DNA of 64,000 nt from positions 27,396-91,395 of IMG/VR virus record IMGVR_UViG_3300020180_000014; one strand, 5' to 3'. Positions 4,850 to 16,019 of the stretch are shown piece by piece (within the stretch, counting starts at the first letter, position 1; the number at the start of each line of letters is the position of its first letter). The notes below the pieces were generated by a model. It saw only the letters and a program-made list of their open reading frames with translations, was not told the DNA's origin and made no database searches. This stretch comes from a virus. The position numbers and the translations under genes were made by a program.

Positions 4850-5140
4850 GTGGCGGTGGACGCTCAAGCGCTCATTGACGCGATCCACACAGACGCTCAA
4901 GCCCTGATCGCGGCAATCGACACGATTCGGAAGTTCGCGCGGACGAACACGGATCGACCGCACGACGTGCTGCAGACCGTCGAGGTGATGCTCGCGAGCT
5001 TGCGTGATGCGCTCAACGGCAAGATGACACTCGACATGCTCACAGCGGAACTCGCTGCGCTCGTGGACGTCCACGGACGTGAAGTCTCGAAGCAACCCAC
5101 ACCGATCGACGACAAGTTCGATCCGGAGCGCGATCAATGA
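4850..5140 (+). CDS. hypothetical protein in lysis cassette
   Basis: 96-aa helical ORF overlapping the endolysin start (ATGA). Confidence 0.65.
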   Translation: MAVDAQALIDAIHTDAQALIAAIDTIRKFARTNTDRPHDVLQTVEVMLASLRDALNGKMTLDMLTAELAALVDVHGREVSKQPTPIDDKFDPERDQ

Positions 5141-6135
5141 TTCTTCGTCCAGGTGACAAGGGCCCCGACGTCGAGATGCTGCAGCTCAAGCTGAAGGCGT
5201 GCGGTTACGATCCCGGTGACGTCGACGGCGACTACGGCAAGCTGACGACTGCCGCAGTACTTGCGTTCCAGATCGATCGTCCTGACATCGACGACGACGG
5301 CATCGCCGGTCCACAGACGCTCGGTGCGCTCGACGCAGCCATCGCGAAGCACAAGCGCGACGAGGACACGACGCAGCCGCCGACGCTGTACACGCCGTGC
5401 AATGCACCCACGTGGGCGGCGTTCCAGTTGCTCGTCGAAGCAATCACGAAGAAACCCGTGCGCTACGGACCGGGGCGCGGGTTGTGGCGGAACGATCAGT
5501 TCCTCATCACGTATGGCGCTGGCCAGACGAACGGTACCGTGAAGCAGTGGCCGAACGTCCTCAACCGGACGTATCCGGCGTTCCACTGCACGAGCTTCAC
5601 GAACTTCTTCATGTCGTGGCTGGAGCGTCGCAATCAGGACTTCACGCACGCAGGCAATATCCCATCGCTGTTCGACCTGCTCGAAAGTTCGCCGGACCTG
5701 CACCAAAACCCTGGCGCGGGACCGTGGCGCGGCTTCGGCGACGTGTGCTTCCGCATTCTGCCCGACGGATCCAGCATCCGTCGCATGGGCATCCCGAACA
5801 TCATCGACATCAGGGAGCTGCTCGATCGTCGAGACACGCTCCCGACGTTCCTCGTGTGGGGCCAGTCGACGAAGCTCGCGAACGGCTCGTGGCGGTGGTG
5901 GCACCACACTGGTCTGTTCTGCGTACGCGACCACAAGCTCTTCCGGATCGCCGCCGACGGTACACGTGGACCGAGCGGCTACTCAGCGACGCCGATGCGC
6001 TACATCGAGATCACGACGGCGAACATGTCGCAGTTCTCGAACGTCGCGTACCGCGTGTACGGCGTACGTGCGGCAGCTGACGGCTCATACGGTGATCAGA
6101 GCCAACCGATCGCGCCCATCACGTTCGAGGCGTGA
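5137..6135 (+). CDS. endolysin: N-terminal peptidoglycan-binding domain plus putative Cys/His catalytic domain
   Basis: LRPGDKGPDVEMLQLKL...DGDYGKLTTAAVLAFQ...DGIAGPQT is PG_binding_1; FHCTSF and HHTGL in C-terminal part. Confidence 0.8.
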   Translation: MILRPGDKGPDVEMLQLKLKACGYDPGDVDGDYGKLTTAAVLAFQIDRPDIDDDGIAGPQTLGALDAAIAKHKRDEDTTQPPTLYTPCNAPTWAAFQLLVEAITKKPVRYGPGRGLWRNDQFLITYGAGQTNGTVKQWPNVLNRTYPAFHCTSFTNFFMSWLERRNQDFTHAGNIPSLFDLLESSPDLHQNPGAGPWRGFGDVCFRILPDGSSIRRMGIPNIIDIRELLDRRDTLPTFLVWGQSTKLANGSWRWWHHTGLFCVRDHKLFRIAADGTRGPSGYSATPMRYIEITTANMSQFSNVAYRVYGVRAAADGSYGDQSQPIAPITFEA

Positions 6136-6190: not shown

Positions 6191-6223
6191 CTCTTGACTT
6201 GTCAGGGGCGTGAACGCTAGAAC
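6191..6223 (+). promoter_or_regulatory. sigma70-type promoter CTCTTGACT-18-TAGAAC
   Basis: same CTCTTGAC -35 context as at 11613 and 15397. Confidence 0.55.
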
Positions 6224-6306
6224 GACAGCTGCCCGTACGTGCTGCGTTGTGTCAGCTCGTTACGACTGAAGGCGCGGCGTACAGCCGTGTCCGGCGAGGA
6301 GCTGTC

Positions 6307-8253
6307 ATGGTCAACGTCAACAACCGCGAGAACCTGGGTCCGGCCGAGCGCATCATCGCGTCGGTCCTCACGTACACCGATCACCTCTATCACGGTCGCC
6401 CCGGCGTTGTGGTCGAGGACAAGCGTACCAACATCGGTGTCCGTTGGGAGCCGGTGACGCCGAAGACGGAAGAGATCAACGGCGCCAAGCGCGAGGTCAT
6501 CTACAAGCTGTCGAAGAGCGGCAAGAAGACGCTCAAGACGAAGATCGGCGTGGTCACGCAAGCTGTTGGTACGCATGGCGTGATCAAGCATGTGCGCACG
6601 GACGTGAGCCCAAACCATCCGATCGTCGGTGAGTACCGTGACGCGGGCATCTTCCCCGAAGTCGCAGCGTGGATGTATCGCCAGATCGTCGAGGTCTACA
6701 AGCTCGACAACGAGTTCGCCGCGAAGTGGGCATCGTTCGCGTACGCGCAGGATCACCGTGACCTCAAGGTCGTGCTCGCTGCGTTCATGCTCGTGCAGGC
6801 GCGCCGTGGTGACGCCGTGCTCGACGGCGGTAAGGTCGCGTTCCACGACGATGACTTCCGTGACGTCGGCGAGGCCATGATGCTGATCCGTCGCAAGGAC
6901 GGTAAGGATCTGAACCCGAAGCTGCTGCTCCGCATCCGCGAGGTGCTGATGCTGCCCGAGATTGCAGCGATCAACCTGGAGCTGGGCTTCGGCAAGTCGA
7001 CGCGTCATCCGTTCCTCGGTCGTTGGCCGGAGGTCACGGAGAAGTGGCTGCGCTATCGCGAGGAGAATCGTCCGCTGCTCATCGGTCTCGTCAAGGCCGG
7101 TTTCCGCAAGACGGTCATCCAGCTCGCGCGCCGCGTGCACTACAAGCCGAACACGCAGTGGTTCTTTGAGGAGCTGCGCTGGAAGCAGGTGCAGTCGGAT
7201 ACGGGTCACCGCACGATGGTCGACATCAACATCGTGCAGGCCGAGTCGTGGAACGAGCTGACCGAGGCACAGGTCTGCGAGAAGATCGTCGCCGAGAAGC
7301 CGGACTGGAAGCGCATCACGGGCATGCTGCCGAAGGGCCTCATGACGCGTGCTGTGGTCGCAGCGGCCATCGAGGCGAAGGCGCTCTCGGACCGTGACCT
7401 CGTCATCGCGACGCCGACGCTGGAAGAGCTGGGGCTGCTCGACGTACCGACGATCAAGGCACGTTGGGAGAAGGCGCTCAAGCACGCCGAAGATTCCCGC
7501 GCGGTCAACATCGCGAAGAACGTCCAGTCCAAGGAGGTGAAGGAGAAGCTCGTCGAGGCATCGGACAACGCCATCAAGAAGGCCGTCGAGGAGGTCTCGA
7601 AGAACATCCGCGTCTACTTCTTCGTCGACATCTCGGGCTCGATGAAGTCGTCGATCGAGGCTGCGAAGTTGCACGTCGCGAAGTTTCTCCAGGGCTTTCC
7701 ACCGGACCGCACGCACATCGCCGTGTTCAACACGGTGGGCCGCGAAATCAAGCTCAAGCACGCATCGGCGGTGGGCGTCGCCAACGCGTTCCAGGGTATT
7801 GCTGCGAGCGGTGGCACCGACTATGGCGCGGGCGTGCGCGAGCTGATGCAGTACAAGCCTCTGCCGGAAGAGGATGTGCTGTTCATCTTCGTCGGTGACG
7901 AGGAGGCACACGCGTTCGATCAGCAGGTTGTCGCATCGAGGCTCAACCCGATGGCGTTCGGCTTCGTGAAGACGATCCCGGACAACGGTGCAGCGGCGTA
8001 TCGCCATGGTCTGCACAACGGCGAGAACAACATCGCGGTTCGCGAAACGGCGAACCGTCTGAAGATTCCGTGCTTCATGATCGACGAGAAGACGTTCGAT
8101 GACGCGTACGCGATCCCGCGCACGATCAGGAACCTGATCGCGGCAACGCCCGTCAACATGGCGCGTGTGGCGGCAGTCGCTGCGGCACCGCGTCTGACGT
8201 TTGTCGATCAGATCCTCAAGACGGACCTGCTGAAGAAGCCTGTCTGGGCGTGA
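6307..8253 (+). CDS. vWA-domain protein with large helical N-terminal region (TROVE/Ro60-like architecture)
   Basis: C-terminal MIDAS FVDISGSM...SGGTDY...FVGDEE; ~430-aa basic helical N-terminus; GAGGAG RBS. The TROVE assignment is inferred from architecture only. Confidence 0.7.
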   Translation: MVNVNNRENLGPAERIIASVLTYTDHLYHGRPGVVVEDKRTNIGVRWEPVTPKTEEINGAKREVIYKLSKSGKKTLKTKIGVVTQAVGTHGVIKHVRTDVSPNHPIVGEYRDAGIFPEVAAWMYRQIVEVYKLDNEFAAKWASFAYAQDHRDLKVVLAAFMLVQARRGDAVLDGGKVAFHDDDFRDVGEAMMLIRRKDGKDLNPKLLLRIREVLMLPEIAAINLELGFGKSTRHPFLGRWPEVTEKWLRYREENRPLLIGLVKAGFRKTVIQLARRVHYKPNTQWFFEELRWKQVQSDTGHRTMVDINIVQAESWNELTEAQVCEKIVAEKPDWKRITGMLPKGLMTRAVVAAAIEAKALSDRDLVIATPTLEELGLLDVPTIKARWEKALKHAEDSRAVNIAKNVQSKEVKEKLVEASDNAIKKAVEEVSKNIRVYFFVDISGSMKSSIEAAKLHVAKFLQGFPPDRTHIAVFNTVGREIKLKHASAVGVANAFQGIAASGGTDYGAGVRELMQYKPLPEEDVLFIFVGDEEAHAFDQQVVASRLNPMAFGFVKTIPDNGAAAYRHGLHNGENNIAVRETANRLKIPCFMIDEKTFDDAYAIPRTIRNLIAATPVNMARVAAVAAAPRLTFVDQILKTDLLKKPVWA

Positions 8254-8261
8254 GGTGAACC

Positions 8262-9209
8262 GTGAGCTGGCGAGATCTACTGCACCAGGACGACGAGCGC
8301 ATCGTACTGCCGTGGATCGGTGGTCGCGAGGTGCGGTCGTTCTCGCGCACGTGGACGCTCGTCGGTGACGTACCGGCTGAGCACGGCTGGTACAGCTTCA
8401 CGCTGCTCAAAGGCCGAAGCGTAACACTGCACGCAGTTGCAGAACTGCACGCTGCGACGCTCGGTCAGGTGCACTTCGGTTACCTCGTCGGTGATCACTT
8501 CGCGACTGAGTCTTTCATCGAGCGCGTTGTAATCGATCCAAAGGACGTCGCCAAGCGTCTGCCGCGCGTGCACCTGATCAACGACGACGTCGATCGGTTT
8601 GCACGCGTCAGCATCGGTTCGGTGACGTCCGACGGTCCACTGTTCTTTCGTCAGGTCGAGATGCCGCTGGGTCCCGAGGACGACGTACTGCGTGCGTACG
8701 AGGACCAGGCTGCCGACGTCAACGCCATCAAGGGCGTCACGCCCGCACTCGATGCGGCGTTTCGGATGGCAGCGTGGCAGCGTACGGAGGCTGTTCGTCG
8801 TCGCGCGGAACTCGAACGGCTGCGCGTCGAGGAAGAGGCCAAGCGTGCAGCCGAGGAGCGTCGCCAGAACCTGGTCAAGCAGCTCGGTGACGGTGCCGGG
8901 CGTCGCGAGATGGCGAAGGTCGACTTCGAGGCTGCCGCACGTGCTGCACTTACGGTTGGCGGTGCTGAGCTGCTCGACTGGAACAAGGTACGCAACCGCA
9001 ACGAGTGGGTCGTGCGCTATCGCCTCGATCGTCGTCGGTTCGAGTGCGTCTGCGACGAGCGGCTGCACATCGTCGACGCCGGAATTTGCTTGGTCGATCA
9101 CCGTACCGGTATCAAGGGCGACACGCGCTTCACGTTGGAGTCGCTACCGGCGGTTGTTCGTCAAGCCATGCGCGAGGGCGTGCTGGTTGTTTTCAGGAAC
9201 GTCAACTAG
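8262..9209 (+). CDS. hypothetical protein with coiled-coil linker and putative E2-like C-terminal domain
   Basis: C-terminal LHIVDAGICL resembles the E2 HPNxxxxGxICL catalytic-Cys motif; directly follows the vWA gene. Confidence 0.55.
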   Translation: MSWRDLLHQDDERIVLPWIGGREVRSFSRTWTLVGDVPAEHGWYSFTLLKGRSVTLHAVAELHAATLGQVHFGYLVGDHFATESFIERVVIDPKDVAKRLPRVHLINDDVDRFARVSIGSVTSDGPLFFRQVEMPLGPEDDVLRAYEDQAADVNAIKGVTPALDAAFRMAAWQRTEAVRRRAELERLRVEEEAKRAAEERRQNLVKQLGDGAGRREMAKVDFEAAARAALTVGGAELLDWNKVRNRNEWVVRYRLDRRRFECVCDERLHIVDAGICLVDHRTGIKGDTRFTLESLPAVVRQAMREGVLVVFRNVN

Positions 9210-9216
9210 GAGTGTT

Positions 9217-9396
9217 ATGGCGAAGAAGATCGAAGGTACGTTTCACATCTGCACACGCGATCAGGCTGGGCGGTACTGCATCAAGGGCGAAGGGCGTGTC
9301 GACGAGCACAACAAAGTCGACGTCGAGATCATCGTGCACGATCACGAAGCGACGAAGCCGTACACGGGACGCAAGTTCACACTCATCATCGAATAG
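9217..9396 (+). CDS. small hypothetical protein
   Basis: AGGAG RBS then MAKKIEGTF... Confidence 0.6.
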   Translation: MAKKIEGTFHICTRDQAGRYCIKGEGRVDEHNKVDVEIIVHDHEATKPYTGRKFTLIIE

Positions 9397-9400
9397 CACT

Positions 9401-9754
9401 ATGGACGTCGAAAAACTGCAAGCTGACATGCGAGCCGCTGCTGAAGCAGGCCTCAAGCGCGATGCTGCAACGGTGCGCGCGAAGATCAACGAACGGAAGC
9501 CGCCGACGCCCCACCTGTTCGACGCGCTCGAATCGATCGGCGCAACGATGGATCCGATGTGGGAAGGCGAGTGGGAGGGCCCGGTCCTGTTCAACGATCC
9601 CAAAGGCGCCTCGCGGTTGATCCTCGTCACGCCTGCCGACCACGACGAGTTCCTGACGTGGGCGACAGCGCATCCGAACTTCACCGACGAAGAATTGCAG
9701 GAGCAAGGCCGTGCGTTCCTCGTGCGCATGTGCGCGAGGCCAGTCAACCCGTGA
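9401..9754 (+). CDS. hypothetical protein
   Basis: MDVEKLQADM...; tight operon spacing. Confidence 0.6.
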   Translation: MDVEKLQADMRAAAEAGLKRDAATVRAKINERKPPTPHLFDALESIGATMDPMWEGEWEGPVLFNDPKGASRLILVTPADHDEFLTWATAHPNFTDEELQEQGRAFLVRMCARPVNP

Positions 9755-10182
9755 GCGTTGAATGGTCGATGGAGAAGGTCGCCGAACAGTTCCGGCTCGA
9801 CGTTCGCGCACGCTTCGAGGCTGAGAACGCAGAGTGGCTCGCCGAAGAGCGTACAGGCATCGCGAAGATCAAAGCCGACTGCGATGCGGCAGGCGAGGCG
9901 TACCCGGACTGGCTTACGCCCGAGCGCAACAGCTTCTACTGGGAGATCTACAGCACCAGTGAGATCGCGATCGTCAACAACTCGGTCGACGTGCTGTTGC
10001 CGACGAACTTCGCGGTCTACCCCAACTTCATTGCGATGTTCGGCAAGACGTCAGTCGGTTGGTCGATCCCGTCGGTCGAGGCGAAAATCGTCGACGGTGA
10101 AGCGCGCCTGTTCGTGCACTTGATCCTGATCGACTACTGGGATGACGAACGCCACGCGAAGTGGCTGAAAGAGAACCCGTGA
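9751..10182 (+). CDS. hypothetical protein
   Basis: GTGA overlaps with neighbours. Confidence 0.6.
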   Translation: MSVEWSMEKVAEQFRLDVRARFEAENAEWLAEERTGIAKIKADCDAAGEAYPDWLTPERNSFYWEIYSTSEIAIVNNSVDVLLPTNFAVYPNFIAMFGKTSVGWSIPSVEAKIVDGEARLFVHLILIDYWDDERHAKWLKENP

Positions 10183-10919
10183 CAACACCACCCCGCTACT
10201 ACCTCGACACTGAGTTCATCGACGACGGCGTGACCGAGACGTTGCAGCTGATCTCGATCGGTATCATCTGCGACGACGGCCGCGAGCTGTACCTCGTCAA
10301 CAGTGAGTTCGACGAGAGCCGCTGCGACGACTGGCTCAAGGAGAACGTCCTCAAGCAGCTACCGCTGTGCACGTGTCCGGGCGGGGGCGCGTTGGATCAT
10401 CTCGGCCACAACGCGCCGGACTGCAAGTGGCGTACGCGCAATCAGATCCGGGATGCGATCATCGCGTTCGTTCCCGATCCCGGCAACGAAGTGAAGCCCG
10501 AGTTCTGGGCGTTCTTCGCGAGCTACGACTGGGTACTGTTCGCACAGCTGTTCGGCAAGATGATCAACTTGCCGAAGCACTTCCCGTGGCTCGTCAACGA
10601 CCTCAAGACGTGGGCCAAGCACCTGGGCTACACCGGCAAGTTCAAGGAGCTGTTGCCGAACACCGGTCATCATGATGCTCTCGCGGATGCGCGCTGGAAC
10701 CGCGACGTGCACAAGATCCTGATGGAGAAGCTCACGTCCACGCAGAAGCTGTTGGGGACGACACTCGTCGAAGCGATGGCGCTCTACGACGAGAAGTGCA
10801 CCGGTTGCAACCTGCAGACGTCCTGCGAATGTCCGAGCAGTGGACACGGCGCAGACTGCCGTCGCGATCGTGAAGCGGCCGTGCGCAAGGTCATAACCGA
10901 TCTGGGGCTGACGTCGTGA
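10179..10919 (+). CDS. DEDDh 3'-5' exoribonuclease (Rv2179c/RNase AS-like)
   Basis: YYLDTEFID...LISIGI...FASYDWV...HDALADARW motifs. Confidence 0.85.
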   Translation: MTTPPRYYLDTEFIDDGVTETLQLISIGIICDDGRELYLVNSEFDESRCDDWLKENVLKQLPLCTCPGGGALDHLGHNAPDCKWRTRNQIRDAIIAFVPDPGNEVKPEFWAFFASYDWVLFAQLFGKMINLPKHFPWLVNDLKTWAKHLGYTGKFKELLPNTGHHDALADARWNRDVHKILMEKLTSTQKLLGTTLVEAMALYDEKCTGCNLQTSCECPSSGHGADCRRDREAAVRKVITDLGLTS

Positions 10920-11194
10920 ATCCGGTCATCGAGAAGCTCATGCCAGATGCACGCGATACGTACTGCACGGGCGCATTGTTCAAGTACGTCCAGCACAAGT
11001 ACAACTGCGACTGGCTGCAGCCGATGTGGCACAAGGGTCCGTGCGACTGCGGACTCAAGGAGTTGATCCAGCAACTGCCTGAAGGTTTGCTGCGAATCCT
11101 CGTCGAAGCGAGCGAACACGTGCGCGCGACCGTCGAGGGTATCAAGCAGGACAAGGAACGCGACGAGCGAGAAGCCACGGAGAAAGCACCATGA
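10916..11194 (+). CDS. hypothetical protein
   Basis: QHKYNC...CDCGL small Cys/His motif; overlapping start/stop. Confidence 0.6.
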   Translation: MNPVIEKLMPDARDTYCTGALFKYVQHKYNCDWLQPMWHKGPCDCGLKELIQQLPEGLLRILVEASEHVRATVEGIKQDKERDEREATEKAP

Positions 11195-11595
11195 TGGAGA
11201 CCGGAGTCGTCGTCAGCATTCACCACGAGCCCATCTTCTGGCACGAACCCGGTGGACGTTCGAGCGGCGCGTTGCCGGATAGTCGCATGCTGTGGGACGT
11301 GTTGTGGCAGGCGAACCGCGACGGTTGGCTTTCGGGTTTCGCGCACACGCATCCAGGTGGCGGTCTGCCGGGTCCATCGCGCGAGGACATCTCGTCGTTC
11401 GTCGCGATCGAGAACGCGATCGGTCGGCCGCTCAACTGGTGGATCGTCAGCTCGGACATGACCGTGCTCGTGCGCAAGTCGACGATGGACAGCATACCGG
11501 GTCGCGAGATTTTCGGTACGACACGCATCGACGATCCTGTGTGGACGCCGGATCTGCGTCGTCGCTCGGGCATGGGCCGGACGCCGTATCGCTGA
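11191..11595 (+). CDS. JAB/MPN+ (JAMM) metallo-isopeptidase
   Basis: N-terminal E plus FAHTHPGGGLPGPSRED (HxH...SxxD) JAMM motif. Confidence 0.85.
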   Translation: MMETGVVVSIHHEPIFWHEPGGRSSGALPDSRMLWDVLWQANRDGWLSGFAHTHPGGGLPGPSREDISSFVAIENAIGRPLNWWIVSSDMTVLVRKSTMDSIPGREIFGTTRIDDPVWTPDLRRRSGMGRTPYR

Positions 11596-11612
11596 TCCCT
11601 GCTGCGACGTAG

Positions 11613-11644
11613 CTCTTGACTTGCCGAGCCTTCGTCGTTAGGGT
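11613..11644 (+). promoter_or_regulatory. sigma70-type promoter CTCTTGACT-17-TAGGGT
   Basis: 17-nt spacer; same -10 as the promoter of the RNA cluster. Confidence 0.65.
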
Positions 11645-11669
11645 CAGGGTTCATCGAGAGGACTGTGCC

Positions 11670-12113
11670 ATGGCTGATAACGAGCTGATGCGTGTGATCA
11701 AGGACGACGAGGCCCGCGTGAACGTCACGTGGAAGAACGCGAACGGCGACCTGCCGGATCCGGTGTTCCGTGACTCGTCCGAGGGTGACGTCCGTGGTTG
11801 GGTGACCGAGGCCGTCCGTAACGGTGGCGTGCCCGGTATCACTGCAGACCGCGATGCGAACTTCGCCGACTACATCGTGGATCGCTTCCCGCCGACGGAA
11901 GCGCGCCCGTACAACCTGATCCAGGTGCGCCCGAAGACGGCGTTCGGCGCTGACATCGAGGATGACGGTCCGAGCGACGCCGAGATCGAAGACCAAGAGA
12001 TCGAACGGCAGATCGAGGCTCAAGAAGAGGCTGCGATCGAGCAGCGTGCCGAGGATCAAGAGATCGAACGGCAGATCGAGGCTCAAGAAGAGGCCGCGAT
12101 CGAACAGGTCTAG
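11670..12113 (+). CDS. ubiquitin-like (beta-grasp) protein with acidic C-terminal extension
   Basis: ~93-aa domain ending LIQVRPKTAFG followed by a D/E-rich tail; adjacent to JAB; fold inferred from size, terminal strand-Gly and context. Confidence 0.6.
   Translation: MADNELMRVIKDDEARVNVTWKNANGDLPDPVFRDSSEGDVRGWVTEAVRNGGVPGITADRDANFADYIVDRFPPTEARPYNLIQVRPKTAFGADIEDDGPSDAEIEDQEIERQIEAQEEAAIEQRAEDQEIERQIEAQEEAAIEQV
11988..12110 (+). repeat. 63-nt tandem duplication encoding EDQEIERQIEAQEEAAIEQ x2
   Basis: 11988-12050 and 12051-12110 are near-identical. Confidence 0.9.
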
Positions 12114-12115
12114 TC

Positions 12116-12616
12116 GTGCTGCGCGTCGTCTCAGGTGCACTGATCCGCGACGGCTACGTGCTGATGGGTTTGCGTAAGAAGAGCGCATACCGACCTGACC
12201 TCTGGGAACTTCCCGGAGGAAAGATCGATCCGGGCGAGTCGCCGCACCAAGCGCTTGTCCGCGAGTGGAGTGAGGAGTGTGGTTGCCGCGTCGAGCCCGG
12301 CCAGTTTCTCTCGATGGCGATACTGCACGTCGACATCTCGTTCGTCATCGAGCTGTACACGATTCGGCTCGTCATGGGCACGCCGATGGCGCTCGACCAT
12401 CAGGAGCTGCGTTGGGTCAATCCGTTGTACGCCGTCCAGCGGCTGCCGTGCTCGCCTGCATTCTACCTGCACTACCCGCAGCTCGTGAAACACATCGAAG
12501 CCAGCTGGTCGATGTCGACGTGCGACGTCGTCGGAGACAGCGGTTGCACGAACGATGAGTGTTCGCGTTGCCACCCTCTCGCGAAACCTGTACGGGCTCT
12601 TCACGAGTCGTGGTGA
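12116..12616 (+). CDS. NUDIX hydrolase (MutT-like)
   Basis: WELPGGKIDPGESPHQALVREWSEECG Nudix box. Confidence 0.85.
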   Translation: MLRVVSGALIRDGYVLMGLRKKSAYRPDLWELPGGKIDPGESPHQALVREWSEECGCRVEPGQFLSMAILHVDISFVIELYTIRLVMGTPMALDHQELRWVNPLYAVQRLPCSPAFYLHYPQLVKHIEASWSMSTCDVVGDSGCTNDECSRCHPLAKPVRALHESW

Positions 12617-12954
12617 TGCCGACCGTCGGTTGGTCCGGTATTCGTCGTGCCGTCGTATGGGCGTTCGAAGCGAAGACGCTCTGGGGCAAGCTGCTGTATG
12701 CGGTCGACGAGCGCGGTTACGACGCTGTCGATGCAATTTCGGCGGCGCTGATCGTGAAGCATCCGGCAATCGCGCGAGAGATCCGACTCACCAGTACGCT
12801 GACCGCACGCACGACGAAGTCGATGGACTTCCACTCAACGTCGGTACATGGCATCGGCTCGACGGACAATTGGCCCTGGAAGGGTCAACTTGTTGAGGTG
12901 CACTTGAACGATGATCAACGACTCGTTGCCGTGTGGTACCAGGAGAAAGGATGA
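12616..12954 (+). CDS. hypothetical protein
   Basis: TGATG coupling. Confidence 0.5.
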   Translation: MPTVGWSGIRRAVVWAFEAKTLWGKLLYAVDERGYDAVDAISAALIVKHPAIAREIRLTSTLTARTTKSMDFHSTSVHGIGSTDNWPWKGQLVEVHLNDDQRLVAVWYQEKG

Positions 12955-13151
12955 CCGTGCAGCTCAGTCTCAGTGAAGTTCAGGTCGCCGTCGCTGACTA
13001 TCTTCGCAAGCGTGGCGTGGTCGTCGAGGACGCTGACCAGGTGCAGCTCGTCAACTTCAGCACGCATACCGGCTACGTCAACATTGCTCATGTCACGCCG
13101 ATGGTCGTGGTCCGTGATGCCAAACTGCCGGAGGGCGGGCCGTACCGATGA
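12951..13151 (+). CDS. small hypothetical protein
   Basis: AGGAG RBS, ATGA overlap. Confidence 0.55.
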   Translation: MTVQLSLSEVQVAVADYLRKRGVVVEDADQVQLVNFSTHTGYVNIAHVTPMVVVRDAKLPEGGPYR

Positions 13152-13456
13152 TCGAGACCGTGTTCCATACCGTGGTCTGGACCGAGACACCGACGAACAT
13201 CACGATGTCGCTCGGGCTCGAAGGTGCGCTCACGACCCGTGAAGCAGCCGAACGCGTGGCGACTGCGTACCGTGAGTTTCTGCAAGCCGACTCCGACGAC
13301 GGGCTCGTACAGGCGTACTTCGCGCGTGTGGGCATCCTGGAGATTTCGCGCGCACACCCACAGCTCAAGCACCCCGAACCGCGCGTGGACGTCGACGCGA
13401 TCGTCGCCGAGATCGAAGCGCGAACAGCACGCAAACGCGAAAAGAGGCTCTCGTGA
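13148..13456 (+). CDS. hypothetical protein
   Basis: ATGA overlap. Confidence 0.55.
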   Translation: MIETVFHTVVWTETPTNITMSLGLEGALTTREAAERVATAYREFLQADSDDGLVQAYFARVGILEISRAHPQLKHPEPRVDVDAIVAEIEARTARKREKRLS

Positions 13457-13950
13457 GACCGGACTGGGATACGTACTTCATGATCATCGCCGACGCGGTG
13501 TCGATGCGTGCGAGCTGCGACCGTGCGCGCGTTGGTGCGGTGATCGTCGTCGATAAGCGCATCATGTCGACCGGCTACAACGGCGCACCGAGCGGCGTGT
13601 CGTCGTGCGACGAGGTCGGCCATGACCTGGTCGACATCAACGGTCGTCAGAGCTGTGTGCGTGTCATCCACTCTGAGAAGAACGCCATCATCACGGCGGC
13701 GCGGCACGGGGTTCGTCTGGCAGGTGCGACGCTCTACACGACCGCGAGCACGTGCCGCGACTGCTACATGGCGGCGCTGCAGACCGGCATCGTTCGGATC
13801 GTCTACGGCTCCGAGTACATCGGCGGCAAGTCGTTCGATTTCGTTTCGGCGGCGCAAGCGAACGGCATAGAGCTGCGGCACTTACCGATCGCGGATGCGA
13901 TCAAGAACTGGACGCCGCCGCCACACGCGGTCTCTGTCAAGGCGCCATGA
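13453..13950 (+). CDS. dCMP deaminase (ComEB/DCTD family)
   Basis: RPDWDTYFM...STGYNGAPSG...HSEKNAI...CRDC zinc deaminase motifs. Confidence 0.9.
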   Translation: MRPDWDTYFMIIADAVSMRASCDRARVGAVIVVDKRIMSTGYNGAPSGVSSCDEVGHDLVDINGRQSCVRVIHSEKNAIITAARHGVRLAGATLYTTASTCRDCYMAALQTGIVRIVYGSEYIGGKSFDFVSAAQANGIELRHLPIADAIKNWTPPPHAVSVKAP

Positions 13951-14180
13951 AGTTCGGGGCGTACCACTGCGAGCGTGGTTGGGTCGTAGACACGGGCGTG
14001 GGCGGTACGTACGCATGGGACGTGGAGCAGGCTCAGTGGCATGACAGTGTTGAAGCGGGGATCGATGAATTGGTTGCGACTGACATCGTCGATGCAGTGG
14101 ATGCGTCAAGGTTCCCGGATGAACCAGCGACGGCAAAGTCTCTCGAACAGGGCGGCTGGCGATTCTTGCGATTGCTCTAG
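13947..14180 (+). CDS. small hypothetical protein
   Basis: ATGA overlap. Confidence 0.5.
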   Translation: MKFGAYHCERGWVVDTGVGGTYAWDVEQAQWHDSVEAGIDELVATDIVDAVDASRFPDEPATAKSLEQGGWRFLRLL

Positions 14181-14192
14181 GGGAAAACAACC

Positions 14193-14789
14193 ATGAAGAC
14201 CGTAACCATCGTTGGTGTCGGCGCGCTCGGCTCGCACGTCACGCAGTTTCTCCGCAACGAGGCGAACCTGCGCGTGATCGACTTCGATCGCGTCGAGGCT
14301 AAGAACATCCTGTCGCAGTTTCATGGCAAACCGGGCGGCGGCAAGCTCAAGGTCGAGGCACTCAAGGGTGCGATGCAGTTCCTGTGGGGAACGAAGCTCG
14401 ACGTGCGCAGTGCGAAGCTGGAGTCGAACAACGTGATCACGATGCTGGCGGGCAGCGACCTGATCATCGATTGTCTCGACAACGGTGCTGGCCGTCGTGT
14501 GCTTCAGGCGTACGCACGCGGTGACGTTGCACATGCACCGGGGCATCGCGAGCAGACGCCGTTGCTCCACGGCGCACTTGCTGCTGACGGTGCGTTCGGC
14601 CGTGTGATCTGGGATGAGAACTTCGTAATCGACGAGAACGACGGCGGTGCCGCGACATGCGAGGACGGCGAGCACCTGCCGTTCATCGTGATGGTGTCGA
14701 GCTTGATCGCACAGTCCGCGAAGGTCTACCTGAAGACGGGCAAGAAGCTCGGCTGGTCGATCGCACCTACGAACATCGTCGGGGTGTAG
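14193..14789 (+). CDS. ThiF/MoeB/E1-like adenylyltransferase
   Basis: IVGVGALGS, DFDRVEAKN..Q, KVEAL, IDCLDN...R, candidate thioester Cys in ATCEDGEH. Confidence 0.9.
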   Translation: MKTVTIVGVGALGSHVTQFLRNEANLRVIDFDRVEAKNILSQFHGKPGGGKLKVEALKGAMQFLWGTKLDVRSAKLESNNVITMLAGSDLIIDCLDNGAGRRVLQAYARGDVAHAPGHREQTPLLHGALAADGAFGRVIWDENFVIDENDGGAATCEDGEHLPFIVMVSSLIAQSAKVYLKTGKKLGWSIAPTNIVGV

Positions 14790-14801
14790 TAGGCTCGCTA
14801 C

Positions 14802-15011
14802 GTGAATGAGATCGTGATCAGATCGACGTGGATCGTCGGTAACGGTGACTGCATCGAAGCTGGTGCGCGCAAGCTGAGTGGCAAGAAGATGAAGCCCCGC
14901 AAGAAGCGTGGCAAGCCGATCTCGCCTGCAGCACGGTTGGAGATGCAGGCGAACATCGCTGCAGCTCGCGAACGCCGTCGTTGTGGGAGCGAGATCACGC
15001 GAAGGAGCTGA
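14802..15011 (+). CDS. small basic hypothetical protein
   Basis: 69-aa ORF coupled to next gene. Confidence 0.4.
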   Translation: MNEIVIRSTWIVGNGDCIEAGARKLSGKKMKPRKKRGKPISPAARLEMQANIAAARERRRCGSEITRRS

Positions 15012-15394
15012 TGCCGCTCCCCGCCGGTAAGCCTCGGACGTTGACAGGTCGTGTCGCCTATCGCATGGTCGACGCGCTCGAAGAAGCATTCAAGCGGGTT
15101 AACCAGGCCGACTTCGAGTACATCCTCATGCTCGGTGCAGCGCAGGCGACAAAGACAGCGCTCACGCCCGAGGACTTCGACAACGATCAGGGCATCGACG
15201 CGTTGACAGCGATCTTCGCGATGCTGACGAAGGAACACGATCGCGACGTGATCCACGTGACGCCGGAGTGGCGACGCGTCGTGGTCTCCGCGCGGCGGTT
15301 GATGCCGCAACGAACAGGTGAACGGTTCTGGCGTTGGAAGGCGAACGGCGAGGCAAACCTGGTGCACGTCGTCGTGATCCCGGGTTTGCCATGA
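15011..15394 (+). CDS. hypothetical protein
   Basis: AAGGAG RBS then MPLPAGKP... Confidence 0.6.
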   Translation: MPLPAGKPRTLTGRVAYRMVDALEEAFKRVNQADFEYILMLGAAQATKTALTPEDFDNDQGIDALTAIFAMLTKEHDRDVIHVTPEWRRVVVSARRLMPQRTGERFWRWKANGEANLVHVVVIPGLP

Positions 15395-15396
15395 AC

Positions 15397-15428
15397 CTCT
15401 TGACAAGGTCAGAACCCTTCGCTAGGGT
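15397..15428 (+). promoter_or_regulatory. sigma70-type promoter CTCTTGACA-17-TAGGGT driving the ncRNA cluster
   Basis: perfect -35 at 15400-15405, 17-nt spacer; predicted start ~15435, at the 5' end of RNA1. Confidence 0.75.
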
Positions 15429-15436
15429 GCTTTTCA

Positions 15437-15530
15437 GCTGGTCACCACCAGCGTCGAGCTTACAAGCGCCCGCATGGGCATCATTCCTACCATCTGGAAA
15501 GAAACCAGCTCGACGCACTCGGTGACCGGT
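15437..15530 (+). ncRNA. structured RNA1 (Y-RNA-like long terminal stem with ACCA/ACUC internal loop)
   Basis: 15437-46 pairs with 15521-30 and 15451-60 with 15507-16, separated by 4x4 loop ACCA/ACTC. Confidence 0.65.
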
Positions 15531-15536
15531 CATCAC

Positions 15537-15664
15537 GAAGGATAAGGAGACTGGGTCTCCGCTTCCCTTACCCGGAAAGTTACCCTCACAGTAACAACTC
15601 GCTGCTTCGGCAGCACCCGCGACTGTGCACACGCTGGTTGGTTCGATTCCAACATCCTTCACGA
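15537..15664 (+). ncRNA. tRNA-like RNA2 with 6-bp D stem and very large variable arm
   Basis: acceptor GAAGGAT/ATCCTTC, D GGAGAC-TGG-GTCTCC, loop CTTACCC, T arm GTTGG-TTCGATT-CCAAC; ~58-nt extra arm with ACTC/ACCC loop and UUCG cap. Confidence 0.7.
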
Positions 15665-15697
15665 CGCTCTGTTTGCGACACTGACAACTGAAGACTC

Positions 15698-15830
15698 GGG
15701 GATTTACCGCCGGTCGGTTCCGGCACTTGAATACGGATCAAGCTATCCAACAGCGGCACTCGGCGCCTTCAAAACACGCCACCAGTCGATTGTTTACAAG
15801 CCCGAGGTTCGACTCCTCAAATCCCCACCG
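15698..15830 (+). ncRNA. tRNA-like RNA3 (8/4 acceptor/T geometry) with very large variable arm
   Basis: acceptor GGGGATTT/AAATCCCC, D GCCGG/CCGGC, stem CTTGA-ATACGGA-TCAAG, T arm GAGG-TTCGACT-CCTC; extra arm with ACTC/ACCA loop. Confidence 0.7.
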
Positions 15831-15951
15831 AGACCGTCACCGCATACGCGCTCACACGCAAGCTCAATTGGTAGAGCAACGGCCTTATAAGCCGTAGGAT
15901 TCGGTTCAAATCCGAAGCTACACAACACAGCGCGTATCACTCGACGGTTTC
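15830..15951 (+). ncRNA. RNA4: tRNA core (D, anticodon loop CUUAUAA, T arms) closed by a Y-like stem instead of an acceptor stem
   Basis: GCTC-AATTGGTA-GAGC, ACGGC-CTTATAA-GCCGT, TTCGG-TTCAAAT-CCGAA, enclosed by ATACGCGCT/AGCGCGTAT and GAGACCGTC/GACGGTTTC with ACCG/ACTC loop. Confidence 0.7.
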
Positions 15952-15955
15952 ACTA

Positions 15956-16019
15956 TGACCCCGAAGTCCAAGCGACACTGCATTGCAGTCTAGCCCACAC
16001 GGAGGGGTCAACCCTTTTT
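15956..16019 (+). terminator. stem-loop followed by short U tract ending the RNA cluster (possible terminator or fifth RNA)
   Basis: TGACCCC...GGGGTCA stem then CCCTTTTT. Confidence 0.35.

What the first reader, a model, noticed from the sequence alone, without database searches (positions are those of the whole stretch)
6191..16019. Candidate new system: virus-encoded ubiquitin-like conjugation machinery linked to a Ro/TROVE-like vWA protein and a cluster of tRNA/Y-like RNAs
Seen: one co-oriented early block contains a vWA protein (6307), a protein with an E2-like GICL motif (8262), a JAB peptidase (11191), a Ubl-like protein (11670), a ThiF/E1 (14193) and four structured RNAs (15437-15951). 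The vWA gene, the Ubl gene and the RNA cluster each have their own promoter with the same CTCTTGAC -35 context, and two share the -10 TAGGGT. Known: E1-E2-JAB-Ubl sets form bacterial ubiquitination-like pathways, several of them anti-phage, and Ro60 (TROVE+vWA) binds Y RNAs, some of which mimic tRNA. Inference: the virus builds an RNP in which the Ro-like protein and RNAs select substrates for Ubl tagging, perhaps to counter host defence or tRNA/RNA damage. The DEDDh exoribonuclease at 10179 may be a partner, analogous to the Ro-Y RNA-PNPase complex.
Basis: partly seen in the sequence, partly recalled or inferred. Interest (0 to 1): 0.92.

Follow-up and report, generated by a model that had tools for sequence, protein, structure and literature searches.

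The report
Phage Ro-like RNP with ubiquitin-like cascade
This large phage carries a fixed gene set, shared by dozens of huge phages and some myxobacteria, that joins a Ro60-shaped RNA-binding-type protein and a new family of stalked tRNA-like RNAs to a small ubiquitin-like protein with its activating enzyme, trimming protease and a cysteine-bearing partner; I found this link between RNA particles and protein tagging in no paper I could search.

Summary
Observation confirmed.

- **Linkage.** The five genes (vWA protein, 315-aa partner, JAB peptidase, about 88-aa Ubl, ThiF-type E1) recur in this order and orientation. They do so in about 50 of 52 untruncated IMG/VR loci, mostly jumbo phages. They also occur in 30 Myxococcota-dominated genome loci, one in the chromosome of a cultured isolate.
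- **Sixth part.** A new structured RNA family has a covarying two-helix stalk with invariant ACAnGC and CUCG motifs and a tRNA-like head. I found 114 copies, all co-oriented and mostly beside the cassette. All four window RNAs carry the stalk.
- **Ubl, JAB, E1.** The Ubl family ends in invariant RPKTPFG. All 8 loci without JAB encode a Ubl that stops at that Gly. The E1 keeps the MoeB Cys187-equivalent cysteine.
- **Partner.** Only the Cys of the GICL motif is invariant across 77 homologues, in a weakly UBC/RWD-like domain. This is E2-like but unproven.
- **vWA protein.** It is Ro60-shaped by fold search but gives no TROVE match by sequence.
- **RNase.** The RNase AS-like gene is lineage-specific, not core.

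How the parts work together, and on what target, is inferred only. This scan had already met the same cassette on other DNA (e1-4035511, e1-5710535, e1-5710555, e1-5676672).

The parts
6191..6222 (+). Promoter-like site before the vWA gene: CTCTTGACT, 17 nt, TAGAAC
   Evidence: The motif is enriched in the window (7 against 2.2 expected).
6307..8253 (+). Ro60-shaped protein (648 aa): N-terminal beta region, helical repeat region (about 117-430), C-terminal vWA domain with an invariant MIDAS motif (DxSxS...T...D)
   Evidence: AF2 model pLDDT 78. The top 12 Foldseek PDB hits are all Ro60/TROVE, with E 4e-7 and 530-620 aligned columns. BFVD hits include Ro-like and TROVE phage proteins. vWA domain Z 14.7. 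Invariant D441 S443 S445 T504 D531. No Pfam TROVE match.
8262..9209 (+). Partner protein (315 aa): two OB/cold-shock-like barrels, a long coiled-coil helix (161-208), and a C-terminal alpha/beta domain with the invariant Cys276 of (D/E)(A/S)G(I/V)CL; candidate E2-like thioester carrier
   Evidence: About 1200 homologues and no Pfam family. AF2 pLDDT 84. Weak fold matches to the Mpa OB inter-domain (Z 4.7) and to FANCL DRWD, Ctf19-Mcm21 RWD and Ubc9 (Z 4.4-3.7). Cys276 is the only Cys kept in all 77 homologues. The gene starts 8 nt after the vWA stop.
10161..10919 (+). RNase AS / Rv2179c-like 3'-5' exoribonuclease; a lineage-specific insert, not a core part
   Evidence: NCBIfam 8.3e-39 and PHROG 3.6e-43. 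Found only in L003, L004 and L044 of 58 loci.
11191..11595 (+). JAB/JAMM metallopeptidase (134 aa); predicted to trim the Ubl precursor after Gly and probably to deconjugate
   Evidence: E3 and HTHPGGGLPGPSRED are conserved across 48 homologues. Present in 53 of 58 loci. All 8 loci that lack it encode a Ubl ending at Gly (Fisher p 0.0027).
11613..11644 (+). Promoter-like site before the Ubl gene: CTCTTGACT, 17 nt, TAGGGT
11670..11948 (+). Ubiquitin-like protein, mature part (93 aa) ending RPKTAFG
   Evidence: Family of 85-90 aa with invariant ...RPK(T)PFG followed by 0-4 residues or long tails. Structure neighbours are PB1 (TM 0.55) and DUF348, both beta-grasp-type. No Pfam or PDB sequence match.
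11949..12113 (+). C-terminal acidic tail of the Ubl precursor (a duplicated EIERQIEAQEEAAIEQ unit), predicted to be removed
   Evidence: Translation. Tails differ or are absent in relatives.
14193..14789 (+). Minimal E1 (ThiF/MoeB-type adenylation domain, 198 aa) with invariant Cys156
   Evidence: Pfam ThiF 7.5e-15. Best PDB match is MoeB 1jw9 at 2.4e-16, with Cys156 aligned to MoeB Cys187. Invariant GxGxxG, D30, K53 and D93. PADLOC Cap2 models match only their E1 part.
15397..15428 (+). Promoter-like site before the RNA array: CTCTTGACA, 17 nt, TAGGGT; conserved in L003 and L004
15431..15537 (+). RNA1: stalk (P1, CACC/ACUC loop, P2, UUACAAGC...AACCAGC junction) with a minimal two-hairpin head
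   Evidence: Models R1 and R2 (E 8e-13). Compensatory changes in L003 and L004.
15538..15659 (+). RNA2: tRNA-like RNA (acceptor and T arm) carrying the same stalk, closed by a UUCG loop, in the variable-arm position
   Evidence: Sequence reading and fold. Present in L003, absent in L004. The stalk motifs are read by eye, not by a model.
15698..15829 (+). RNA3: tRNA-Arg(ACG)-like cloverleaf with the stalk as a closed variable arm of about 58 nt
   Evidence: Consensus fold of three sequences. Motif search gives 4 hits on the + strand and 0 on the reverse-complement control.
15833..15948 (+). RNA4: D, anticodon (UAU) and T arms without an acceptor stem, enclosed by the open stalk
   Evidence: Rfam tRNA positions 9-63, 49 bits. 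R2 hit at E 4e-9.

Best explanation
The stretch encodes one conserved six-part module. The parts are:
1. A Ro60-shaped helical + vWA(MIDAS) protein.
2. Its translationally coupled partner, built of OB barrels, a coiled coil and a C-terminal domain with a single invariant Cys.
3. A JAMM peptidase.
4. A beta-grasp-type Ubl made as a precursor.
5. A minimal MoeB/ThiF-type E1.
6. An array of stalked tRNA-like RNAs transcribed from their own promoter.

Proposed mechanism:
- JAB cuts the precursor after ...PKTAFG to free the C-terminal Gly (inferred from the JAB/extension correlation).
- The E1 adenylates that Gly and holds it on Cys156 (inferred from homology to MoeB/ThiF/Uba4).
- The Ubl passes to Cys276 of the partner, which acts as an E2-like carrier (inferred; the fold evidence is weak).
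- The Ro-like protein binds the invariant loops of the RNA stalk, as Ro60 binds Y RNA stems.
- The tRNA-like heads, and the partner's OB folds, bring the cascade to an RNA-associated target. Both the binding and the targeting are inferred from gene linkage only.

Shown here: the parts exist, are intact, and are linked across more than 80 loci, and the RNA stalk is a real structure. Not shown: any binding, any thioester, any conjugate, or the target.
For: - Fixed order and orientation of the five genes in about 50 of 52 untruncated viral loci and in the genome loci. The other window genes are not conserved with them.
- Stalked RNA family: on 13 sequences, 90.7% of cells pair against 25-39% in slid controls, and 18 of 20 pairs show compensatory change. 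On 114 sequences, 90% pair against 31-38%, and the covariation score is 0.92 against 0.10-0.14.
- All 122 viral-locus hits and all 30 genome-locus hits of the RNA model are on the cassette's strand.
- Of the 99 hits with E<1e-3, 65 lie within 1.5 kb downstream of ThiF and 18 within 3 kb upstream of the vWA gene.
- A stalked RNA lies 39 nt after ThiF in the Paraliomyxa chromosome, where there is no tRNA array.
- Ubl C-terminus and its link to JAB.
- E1 residues and the conserved Cys.
- The single invariant Cys of the partner, with UBC/RWD-like matches.
- Ro60/TROVE top fold hits in both PDB and BFVD, and an invariant MIDAS motif.
Against: - No TROVE sequence signal at all. TM-scores to Ro60 are only 0.35-0.46.
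- The UBC-like fold matches of the partner have Z below 5, which is within background for this tool. There is no HPN motif and no Prok-E2 or UQ_con match.
- The Ubl fold rests on a low-confidence Atlas model (pLDDT 0.58) and TM 0.55 neighbours.
- The Ubl ends in Phe-Gly, not Gly-Gly.
- No expression, binding or conjugation data; no RNA sequencing run holds the stretch.
- The 114-sequence covariation count was made on an alignment fitted to the model.
Confidence: 0.55

Rival explanations
1. Sulfur-carrier pathway. The Ubl is thiocarboxylated by the E1, as for ThiS, MoaD, TtuB, Urm1 and SAMP2, and donates sulfur for thiolation of the tRNAs or tRNA-like RNAs encoded around the cassette. JAB only exposes the C-terminal Gly, as Mec+ does for CysO and QbsD for QbsE.
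For: - The E1 is closest to MoeB, Uba4 and ThiF and keeps the MoeB Cys187-equivalent cysteine.
- The cassette lies inside tRNA arrays in most jumbo-phage loci, and the RNAs are tRNA-like.
- JAB tracks C-terminal extensions.
- Dual sulfur-carrier and conjugation Ubls are established for Urm1, TtuB and the SAMPs (PMC5349211, PMC2948915).
Against: - No rhodanese domain, cysteine desulfurase or PP-loop thiolase (TtuA/Ncs6/MnmA type) is conserved in the cassette.
- The C-terminus is PFG, not GG.
- JAB is retained in many loci whose Ubl already ends at Gly, which suggests deconjugation as well.
- The invariant-Cys partner and the MIDAS vWA protein have no role in known sulfur relays.
Confidence: 0.15
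2. The RNA stalk is a processing element rather than a protein-binding Y-RNA-type stem. On this reading it is a leader-trailer helix or intron-like module, cut out (and, for the closed or permuted forms, re-ligated) to yield ordinary tRNAs, by analogy with bulge-helix-bulge processing of intron-containing and permuted tRNA genes. The protein cassette would then serve tRNA maturation or quality control.
For: - The same stalk occurs in three topologies that would each leave a normal cloverleaf after excision: around normal-order tRNAs, around permuted T-acceptor-D-anticodon units, and as a closed variable arm.
- Many heads are called as tRNAs by ARAGORN.
- The conserved motifs flank helix P2 on both sides.
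Against: - Headless or minimal versions (window RNA1, L005) are conserved and sit directly behind a promoter.
- Window RNA4 has no acceptor stem.
- Several heads carry A34 anticodons unusual for decoding tRNAs, such as aac, atc, att and aaa.
- No endonuclease or RtcB-type ligase is conserved in the cassette.
Confidence: 0.15
3. Two unrelated units, a Ro-like/Y-like RNP and a Ubl/E1/JAB set, merely share a permissive insertion spot in phage tRNA regions and do not work together.
For: - tRNA regions of large phages collect many small unrelated genes.
- In several loci, unrelated ORFs separate the five genes, as in the window itself, where 315, JAB, Ubl and ThiF are spread over 6.5 kb.
Against: - The order vWA-315-JAB-Ubl-ThiF is kept in over 70 loci with 40-60% protein identity.
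- In many loci the five genes form a back-to-back operon of about 4 kb (L024, L028, L034, L035, L068, L071, L077, L080).
- The cassette is also kept in a myxobacterial chromosome without a tRNA array.
Confidence: 0.05

Closest known systems
Bacterial and phage Ro60 (Rsr) with YrlA-type Y RNAs, including Thermus phage phiLo phiRo60 with Yrl1/Yrl2 (PMC4201824; PMC12135203; PDB 1YVP, 2NVO, 9KOP, 9L5Y)
   Same: - Helical-repeat domain plus C-terminal vWA domain with a MIDAS motif.
- Best full-length fold matches are these proteins.
- The gene lies next to several small RNAs that combine a long terminal stem with a tRNA-like module.
- In relatives, the module has the YrlA order T arm, closed acceptor hairpin, D arm.
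   Different: - No TROVE sequence match.
- An extra N-terminal beta region of about 100 aa.
- The RNA stalk has its own conserved motifs (C-A..., ACAnGC, CUCG) rather than GNCGAAN0-1G.
- The window's own RNAs are not of the permuted type.
- No Rfam Y RNA match.
- Always linked to a Ubl/E1/JAB set, which no described Ro60 system has in the papers I could search.
Bil (BilABCD) and type II CBASS Cap2/Cap3 bacterial ubiquitin-like conjugation systems (PMC10097602; 10.1101/2023.09.26.559546)
   Same: - E1-type adenylating enzyme, JAB peptidase, a Ubl or target with a C-terminal Gly, and a Cys-bearing E2-type component.
- Cap2 models match the window's E1.
   Different: - The E1 is a stand-alone 198-aa domain, not an E1-E2 fusion.
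- The candidate E2 has no sequence match to any Prok-E2, UQ_con or PADLOC model, and is fused to OB folds and a coiled coil.
- A vWA protein and dedicated RNAs are obligate neighbours.
- Encoded by phages as well as by cells.
Archaeal SAMP/UbaA/HvJAMM1 and Thermus TtuB/TtuC/JAMM systems; eukaryotic Urm1/Uba4 (PMC2948915; PMC4443979; PMC5349211)
   Same: - A small beta-grasp protein, a MoeB-like E1 and a JAMM peptidase.
- A functional tie to tRNA (thiolation).
- Conjugation is possible without a canonical E2.
   Different: - Those Ubls end in Gly-Gly and work with PP-loop thiolases and sulfur donors, none of which is conserved here.
- They have no vWA or Ro-like protein and no dedicated RNAs.
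CysO/MoeZ/Mec+ and QbsE/QbsC/QbsD (JAB peptidase acting on the C-terminus of a sulfur-carrier Ubl; from my own knowledge of these pathways)
   Same: - The Ubl is made with extra C-terminal residues, and an adjacent JAB is predicted to remove them.
- JAB is absent where the Ubl already ends at Gly.
   Different: - Those are small-molecule biosynthesis pathways with biosynthetic enzyme neighbours.
- Here the neighbours are an RNA-particle-type protein and RNAs.

Membership tests
Ro60 / TROVE (Pfam PF05731 + vWA) | Sequence match to the TROVE domain model | tested here: not met
   - No hit at E<=0.01 for the protein.
- None at E<=10 in the whole 91-kb contig.
- None in 31 family members at E<=5.
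- None in 10 distant relatives of 508-574 aa.
Ro60 / TROVE (Pfam PF05731 + vWA) | Ring of helical repeats followed by a vWA domain (fold) | tested here: inconclusive
   - The top 12 Foldseek PDB hits are all Ro60/TROVE, with E 4e-7 to 2e-5, 530-620 aligned columns and TM 0.29-0.44.
- BFVD hits include Ro-like and TROVE phage proteins.
- The VIA second look was filled by vWA-only matches.
- The N-terminal part was not folded on its own.
Ro60 / TROVE (Pfam PF05731 + vWA) | vWA domain with MIDAS metal site | tested here: met
   D441, S443, S445, T504 and D531 are invariant in 31 sequences. vWA fold Z 14.7.
Ro60 / TROVE (Pfam PF05731 + vWA) | Binds adjacent Y RNAs | not testable with these tools
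   Only adjacency is shown: stalked RNAs flank the cassette in 41 viral loci and in most genome loci.
YrlA-type Y RNA | Long stem formed by the 5' and 3' ends, closing a tRNA-like module | tested here: met
   Window RNA1 and RNA4, and 114 relatives; covariation.
YrlA-type Y RNA | Permuted order: T arm, closed acceptor-like hairpin, D arm | tested here: not met
   None of the window's four RNAs has this order. It is present in relatives L010 14657-14809, L032 16327-16481, L019 16952-17106 and L011 16378-16510.
YrlA-type Y RNA | GNCGAAN0-1G Ro-binding motif near the 5' end (PMC4201824), or an Rfam match | tested here: not met
   The conserved stalk motifs are C-A, ACAnGC and CUCG. Rfam gives only tRNA matches.
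E1 / ThiF-MoeB adenylation domain | ThiF model above cut-off, with nucleotide-binding residues | tested here: met
   Pfam ThiF 55.2 bits against a cut-off of 28.1. Invariant G8, G10, G13, D30, K53 and D93.
E1 / ThiF-MoeB adenylation domain | Conserved Cys in the crossover loop | tested here: met
   Invariant C156 aligns with Cys187 of MoeB in 1jw9.
JAB / JAMM (MPN+) metallopeptidase | E...HxH...SxxD metal and catalytic motif | tested here: met
   E3 and HTHPGGGLPGPSRED in the window, conserved in 48 homologues. The Pfam Prok-JAB score is below its cut-off (19.4 against 25).
Ubiquitin-like beta-grasp modifier | Beta-grasp fold | tested here: inconclusive
   Atlas structure neighbours are PB1 (TM 0.55) and DUF348, but the Atlas model has pLDDT 0.58. 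No Pfam or PDB sequence match.
Ubiquitin-like beta-grasp modifier | C-terminal Gly, free or exposed by a peptidase | tested here: met
   Invariant ...PFG followed by stop, 1-4 residues or long tails. It is Phe-Gly, not Gly-Gly.
UBC / E2 (including prokaryotic E2-like) | UBC/RWD alpha-beta4-alpha fold | tested here: inconclusive
   Model residues 216-307 match FANCL DRWD (Z 4.4, 76 aligned), Ctf19-Mcm21 RWD (Z 4.1) and Ubc9 (Z 3.7, 80 aligned). All are within the tool's background range. Foldseek gave no E2.
UBC / E2 (including prokaryotic E2-like) | Single conserved catalytic Cys in the loop after strand 4 | tested here: met
   The Cys of (D/E)(A/S)G(I/V)CL is kept in all 77 homologues, while C262, C264 and H280 are not.
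UBC / E2 (including prokaryotic E2-like) | Sequence match to UQ_con or Prok-E2 models; HPN motif | tested here: not met
   No Pfam hit for 31 members at E<=5. No PADLOC hit. No conserved HPN before the Cys.

The most novel reading that the evidence does not exclude
The stalked tRNA-like RNAs are the specificity subunits of an RNA-guided ubiquitin-like ligase. The Ro-like protein holds the stalk. The tRNA-mimic head baits tRNA-binding proteins, for example host anticodon nucleases or other tRNA-targeting defence enzymes. The E1/E2-like pair then tags the captured protein with the Ubl. In the most extreme version, the Ubl is attached to the RNA itself.
Probability: 0.2. Interest if true: 0.95.

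Novelty: categorically new. Interest (0 to 1): 0.85.

Why it matters
**What it would mean if the parts work together**
- It would be the first system to couple an RNA particle of the Ro60/Y RNA type to a ubiquitin-like cascade.
- Ro60 biology has lacked an enzymatic output in bacteria beyond nuclease tethering. Prokaryotic Ubl systems have lacked known targeting principles. This module offers a tractable link between the two.

**What is new in it**
- A large structured RNA family: at least 114 copies in the loci held here, in four topologies around one stalk.
- Two protein families without any Pfam model.

**Why it is testable**
- The module sits in the tRNA regions of many huge phages, and also in the chromosome of a cultured myxobacterium, Paraliomyxa miuraensis SMH-27-4. 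Genetics and small-RNA work are therefore possible.

**Caveat**
- The novelty claim rests on full-text searches of the held library only.

Tried and rejected
- **tRNA and Rfam scans.** ARAGORN finds no tRNA in the window. Rfam finds one acceptor-less tRNA core and no Y RNA family, also in relatives.
- **TROVE by sequence.** Nothing from Pfam on the protein, the contig, 31 relatives or 10 distant relatives, nor from PDB sequence and profile searches.
- **VIA second look at the vWA model.** It was filled by vWA-only matches, so it said nothing about the helical part.
- **ESM Atlas on the 315-aa protein.** No usable hit.
- **Zinc-finger (SWIM-like CxC...C...H) reading of the partner's C-terminus.** This was suggested by 31 close homologues. 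I rejected it because C262, C264 and H280 are lost in many of 77 homologues, while the GICL Cys never is.
- **RNase AS-like exonuclease as a core partner.** Rejected: it occurs in only 3 of 58 loci.
- **PADLOC.** No defence-system model matches any part except the E1.
- **Conserved AACCA as the tRNA CCA end.** Rejected by reading the sequences: it lies 6-10 nt beyond the acceptor strand.
- **Expression.** No RNA holder is listed for the stretch. The only full holder is a microbial mat metagenome that may be the source.
- **Literature.** No paper in the held library joins TROVE/Ro60 with JAB, E1 and Ubl. The jumbo-phage survey PMC7824862 mentions ROT/TROVE proteins in a few phages, without a Ubl link.

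Full report
**1. What is there**

The window is part of a 91-kb IMG/VR virus contig, estimated 68% complete. It carries a replication block: ThyX, an SNF2 helicase, ribonucleotide reductase, PolA fused to UDG, and a DinG-like helicase.

- **vWA protein (648 aa).** It is identical to a database protein.
- **315-aa protein.** It starts 8 nt after the vWA stop.
- **Exoribonuclease.** It is RNase AS/Rv2179c-like.
- **JAB peptidase.** It has an intact E...HxH...SxxD motif.
- **Ubl precursor (147 aa).**
- **ThiF-type protein (198 aa).**
- **RNA-rich stretch (about 520 nt).**
- **Promoter motif.** CTCTTGAC is enriched (7 against 2.2 expected). It precedes the vWA gene, the Ubl gene and the RNAs. TAGGGT follows 17 nt downstream at two of the three sites.

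**2. The five genes are one unit**

A profile of the vWA family found 57 viral loci, mostly contigs of 100-620 kb.

I ran tblastn with all 19 proteins of the stretch against these 57 loci plus Rctr197k, 58 in all.

| Protein | Loci with a match (of 58) |
|---|---|
| vWA | 58 |
| 315-aa partner | 53 |
| JAB | 53 |
| Ubl | 53 |
| ThiF | 50 |
| Every other gene | 0-3 |

The five always occur in the order vWA, 315, JAB, Ubl, ThiF on one strand. The loci that lack members are cut by contig ends. In many loci they form a tight operon of about 4 kb.

The only relative in the phage record collection, Virus Rctr197k, has the same set between two tRNA blocks.

A scan of one genome per prokaryotic species gave 30 more loci. 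Nearly all are from Myxococcota, mostly MAGs. One is the cultured isolate Paraliomyxa miuraensis SMH-27-4, where the cassette lies on a 799-kb scaffold. Its neighbours there are a Ser/Thr kinase-TPR gene, YcaO, halogenase and nitroreductase genes. That is chromosomal context, not phage.

**3. A sixth part: stalked tRNA-like RNAs**

The RNA stretch is conserved in the two closest contigs, with compensatory changes.

A covariance model of RNA1 found distant copies downstream of ThiF in other loci, and also hit window RNA4. Thirteen copies align on a common stalk:
- helix P1
- an internal loop (5' C-A..., 3' A-C-U-C-G)
- helix P2
- junction motifs yACAmGCA and AACCAGC around a variable head

On these 13 sequences, 90.7% of cells pair against 25-39% in slid controls, and 18 of 20 pairs show compensatory change.

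The second model gave the following.
- 122 hits in the viral loci, all on the + strand.
- Of the 99 hits with E<1e-3, 65 lie within 1.5 kb downstream of ThiF, 18 lie within 3 kb upstream of the vWA gene, and none is inside the cassette.
- 30 more hits, again all on the + strand, beside the cassette in the genome loci. One is a tRNA-Arg(ACG)-like unit 39 nt after ThiF in Paraliomyxa.

On 114 aligned copies, 90% of cells pair against 31-38% slid, and the covariation score is 0.92 against 0.10-0.14. This alignment was fitted to the model. ACA-G of the junction is invariant in all 114 copies, and C-U-C of the loop in 113-114 of them.

The head comes in four forms.

| Form | Head | Examples |
|---|---|---|
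| Permuted | T arm, closed acceptor hairpin, D arm, anticodon arm (the YrlA order) | L010, L011, L019, L032 |
| Normal order | tRNA or tRNA-like core inside the open stalk | window RNA4, L010, L040 |
| Closed stalk | normal tRNA carrying the stalk as a closed long variable arm | window RNA2, RNA3 |
| Minimal | two small hairpins | window RNA1, L005 |

These forms are read. Rfam has no family for these RNAs.

**4. The proteins**

*E1.* The profile's best solved relative is MoeB (2.4e-16). The nucleotide-binding residues are invariant. Invariant Cys156 aligns with MoeB Cys187, the position of the ThiF and E1 reactive cysteine.

*Ubl.* The family is 85-90 aa long and ends in invariant RPK(T)PFG, followed by a stop, 1-4 residues, or long unrelated tails.
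- In the genome loci, all 8 cassettes without JAB encode a Ubl that stops at that Gly.
- Ten of the 15 JAB-bearing cassettes there have extensions (Fisher p 0.0027).
- This supports precursor trimming by JAB.
- JAB is also kept where no extension exists, which suggests deconjugation as well.
- The beta-grasp fold is only weakly supported, by PB1 and DUF348 neighbours at TM 0.48-0.55.

*Partner (315 aa).* It has about 1200 homologues and no Pfam family.
- The model (pLDDT 84) shows two OB-like barrels, a 48-residue helix and a C-terminal alpha-beta4-loop-alpha domain.
- Fold matches are weak. The C-terminal domain matches FANCL DRWD, Ctf19-Mcm21 RWD and Ubc9 at Z 3.7-4.4. The OB pair matches Mpa at Z 4.7.
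- Close homologues suggested a CxC...C...H zinc site.
- Over 77 homologues, only the Cys of (D/E)(A/S)G(I/V)CL is invariant. That fits a catalytic or thioester Cys placed as in E2 enzymes.

*vWA protein.* The vWA domain is clear (Z 14.7), and its MIDAS motif is invariant.
- Over its whole length, the best matches in PDB are Ro60 proteins from frog, human, Deinococcus and Thermus phage phiLo (E 4e-7, 530-620 columns, TM 0.29-0.44).
- In BFVD, the best matches include Ro-like and TROVE phage proteins.
- No TROVE sequence signal exists, even in distant relatives found by an exhaustive profile search.
- I call it Ro60-shaped, not a TROVE family member.

**5. Reading**

The best-supported account is a single module. 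In it, a Ubl is trimmed (JAB), activated (E1), probably carried by the partner's Cys, and used in the context of an RNP made of the Ro-like protein and the stalked RNAs.

Linkage, intactness and RNA structure are shown. Every biochemical step is inferred.

The rivals are:
- a sulfur-carrier pathway for RNA thiolation
- the stalk as a tRNA processing element
- chance co-location

I could not reach expression data.

**6. Comparison and novelty**

The closest known systems are:
- Ro60 with YrlA Y RNAs, including the phage phiLo particle (PMC4201824, PMC12135203)
- Bil and CBASS Cap2/Cap3 Ubl conjugation
- the SAMP, TtuB and Urm1 systems, which tie a Ubl to tRNA

None of these combines an RNA particle with a Ubl cascade. 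The jumbo-phage survey PMC7824862 notes ROT/TROVE proteins in a few phages only. Full-text searches found no paper that describes the link.

Earlier agents of this scan found the same cassette and RNA family on other DNA. I re-derived the cassette, the myxobacterial occurrence and the RNA family independently here.

This report adds three things:
- the link between JAB absence and a mature-ended Ubl
- the rejection of the zinc-site reading of the partner
- the counts of RNA linkage and topology

Noticed in passing
window 5137-6135 (+): The ORF just upstream of the cassette has an N-terminal PG_binding_1 domain and matches endolysin PHROGs only over its first ~115 residues. The remaining ~220 residues of its 332 aa match nothing.
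   Followed up: no
window 12116-12616 and 13453-13950 (+): A NUDIX hydrolase and a dCMP-deaminase/ComEB-like protein sit between the Ubl and ThiF genes. The deaminase also gives weaker matches to an anti-phage dCTP deaminase model and to TadA. Both genes occur only in the closest relatives (L003, L004; the deaminase also in L006).
   Followed up: partly
window 11949-12113 (+): The Ubl precursor tail is a tandem duplication of an acidic unit of about 21 residues (EIERQIEAQEEAAIEQ...). Relatives carry unrelated tails instead, some with Cys-rich ends (L003, L004, L043).
   Followed up: no
window 17032, 31104 (+); 23595, 41262 (-): Four further copies of the CTCTTGAC promoter-like motif lie outside the finding. 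They suggest a phage-specific promoter class.
   Followed up: no
loci L029, L031, L038, L042, L047, L054: Related jumbo-phage loci encode their own tmRNA within a few kb of the cassette, inside the tRNA arrays.
   Followed up: no
e.g. L010 15221-15292, L040 14817-14889, L023 17009-17081, L025 17403-17478, L047 4937-5012: tRNAs that ARAGORN calls with unusual A34 anticodons (aac, atc, att, aaa, aat) are the heads of stalked RNAs. tRNA-Arg(ACG/TCG)-like heads recur right after ThiF (L006, L031, L032, L037, L053, L081, and window RNA3).
   Followed up: partly
window 50631-53249 (+): A family A DNA polymerase is fused to an N-terminal uracil-DNA glycosylase-superfamily domain. The neighbouring ribonucleotide reductase has a TSCPD domain.
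   Followed up: no
window 8068-8123: A 56-nt stretch inside the vWA gene is 96% identical at the DNA level to Virus Rctr197k, although the two proteins are only 54% identical overall.
   Followed up: no
L003 11883-11957: The closest relative has a regular tRNA-Met right after its RNA4 homologue. The window lacks this tRNA.
   Followed up: no
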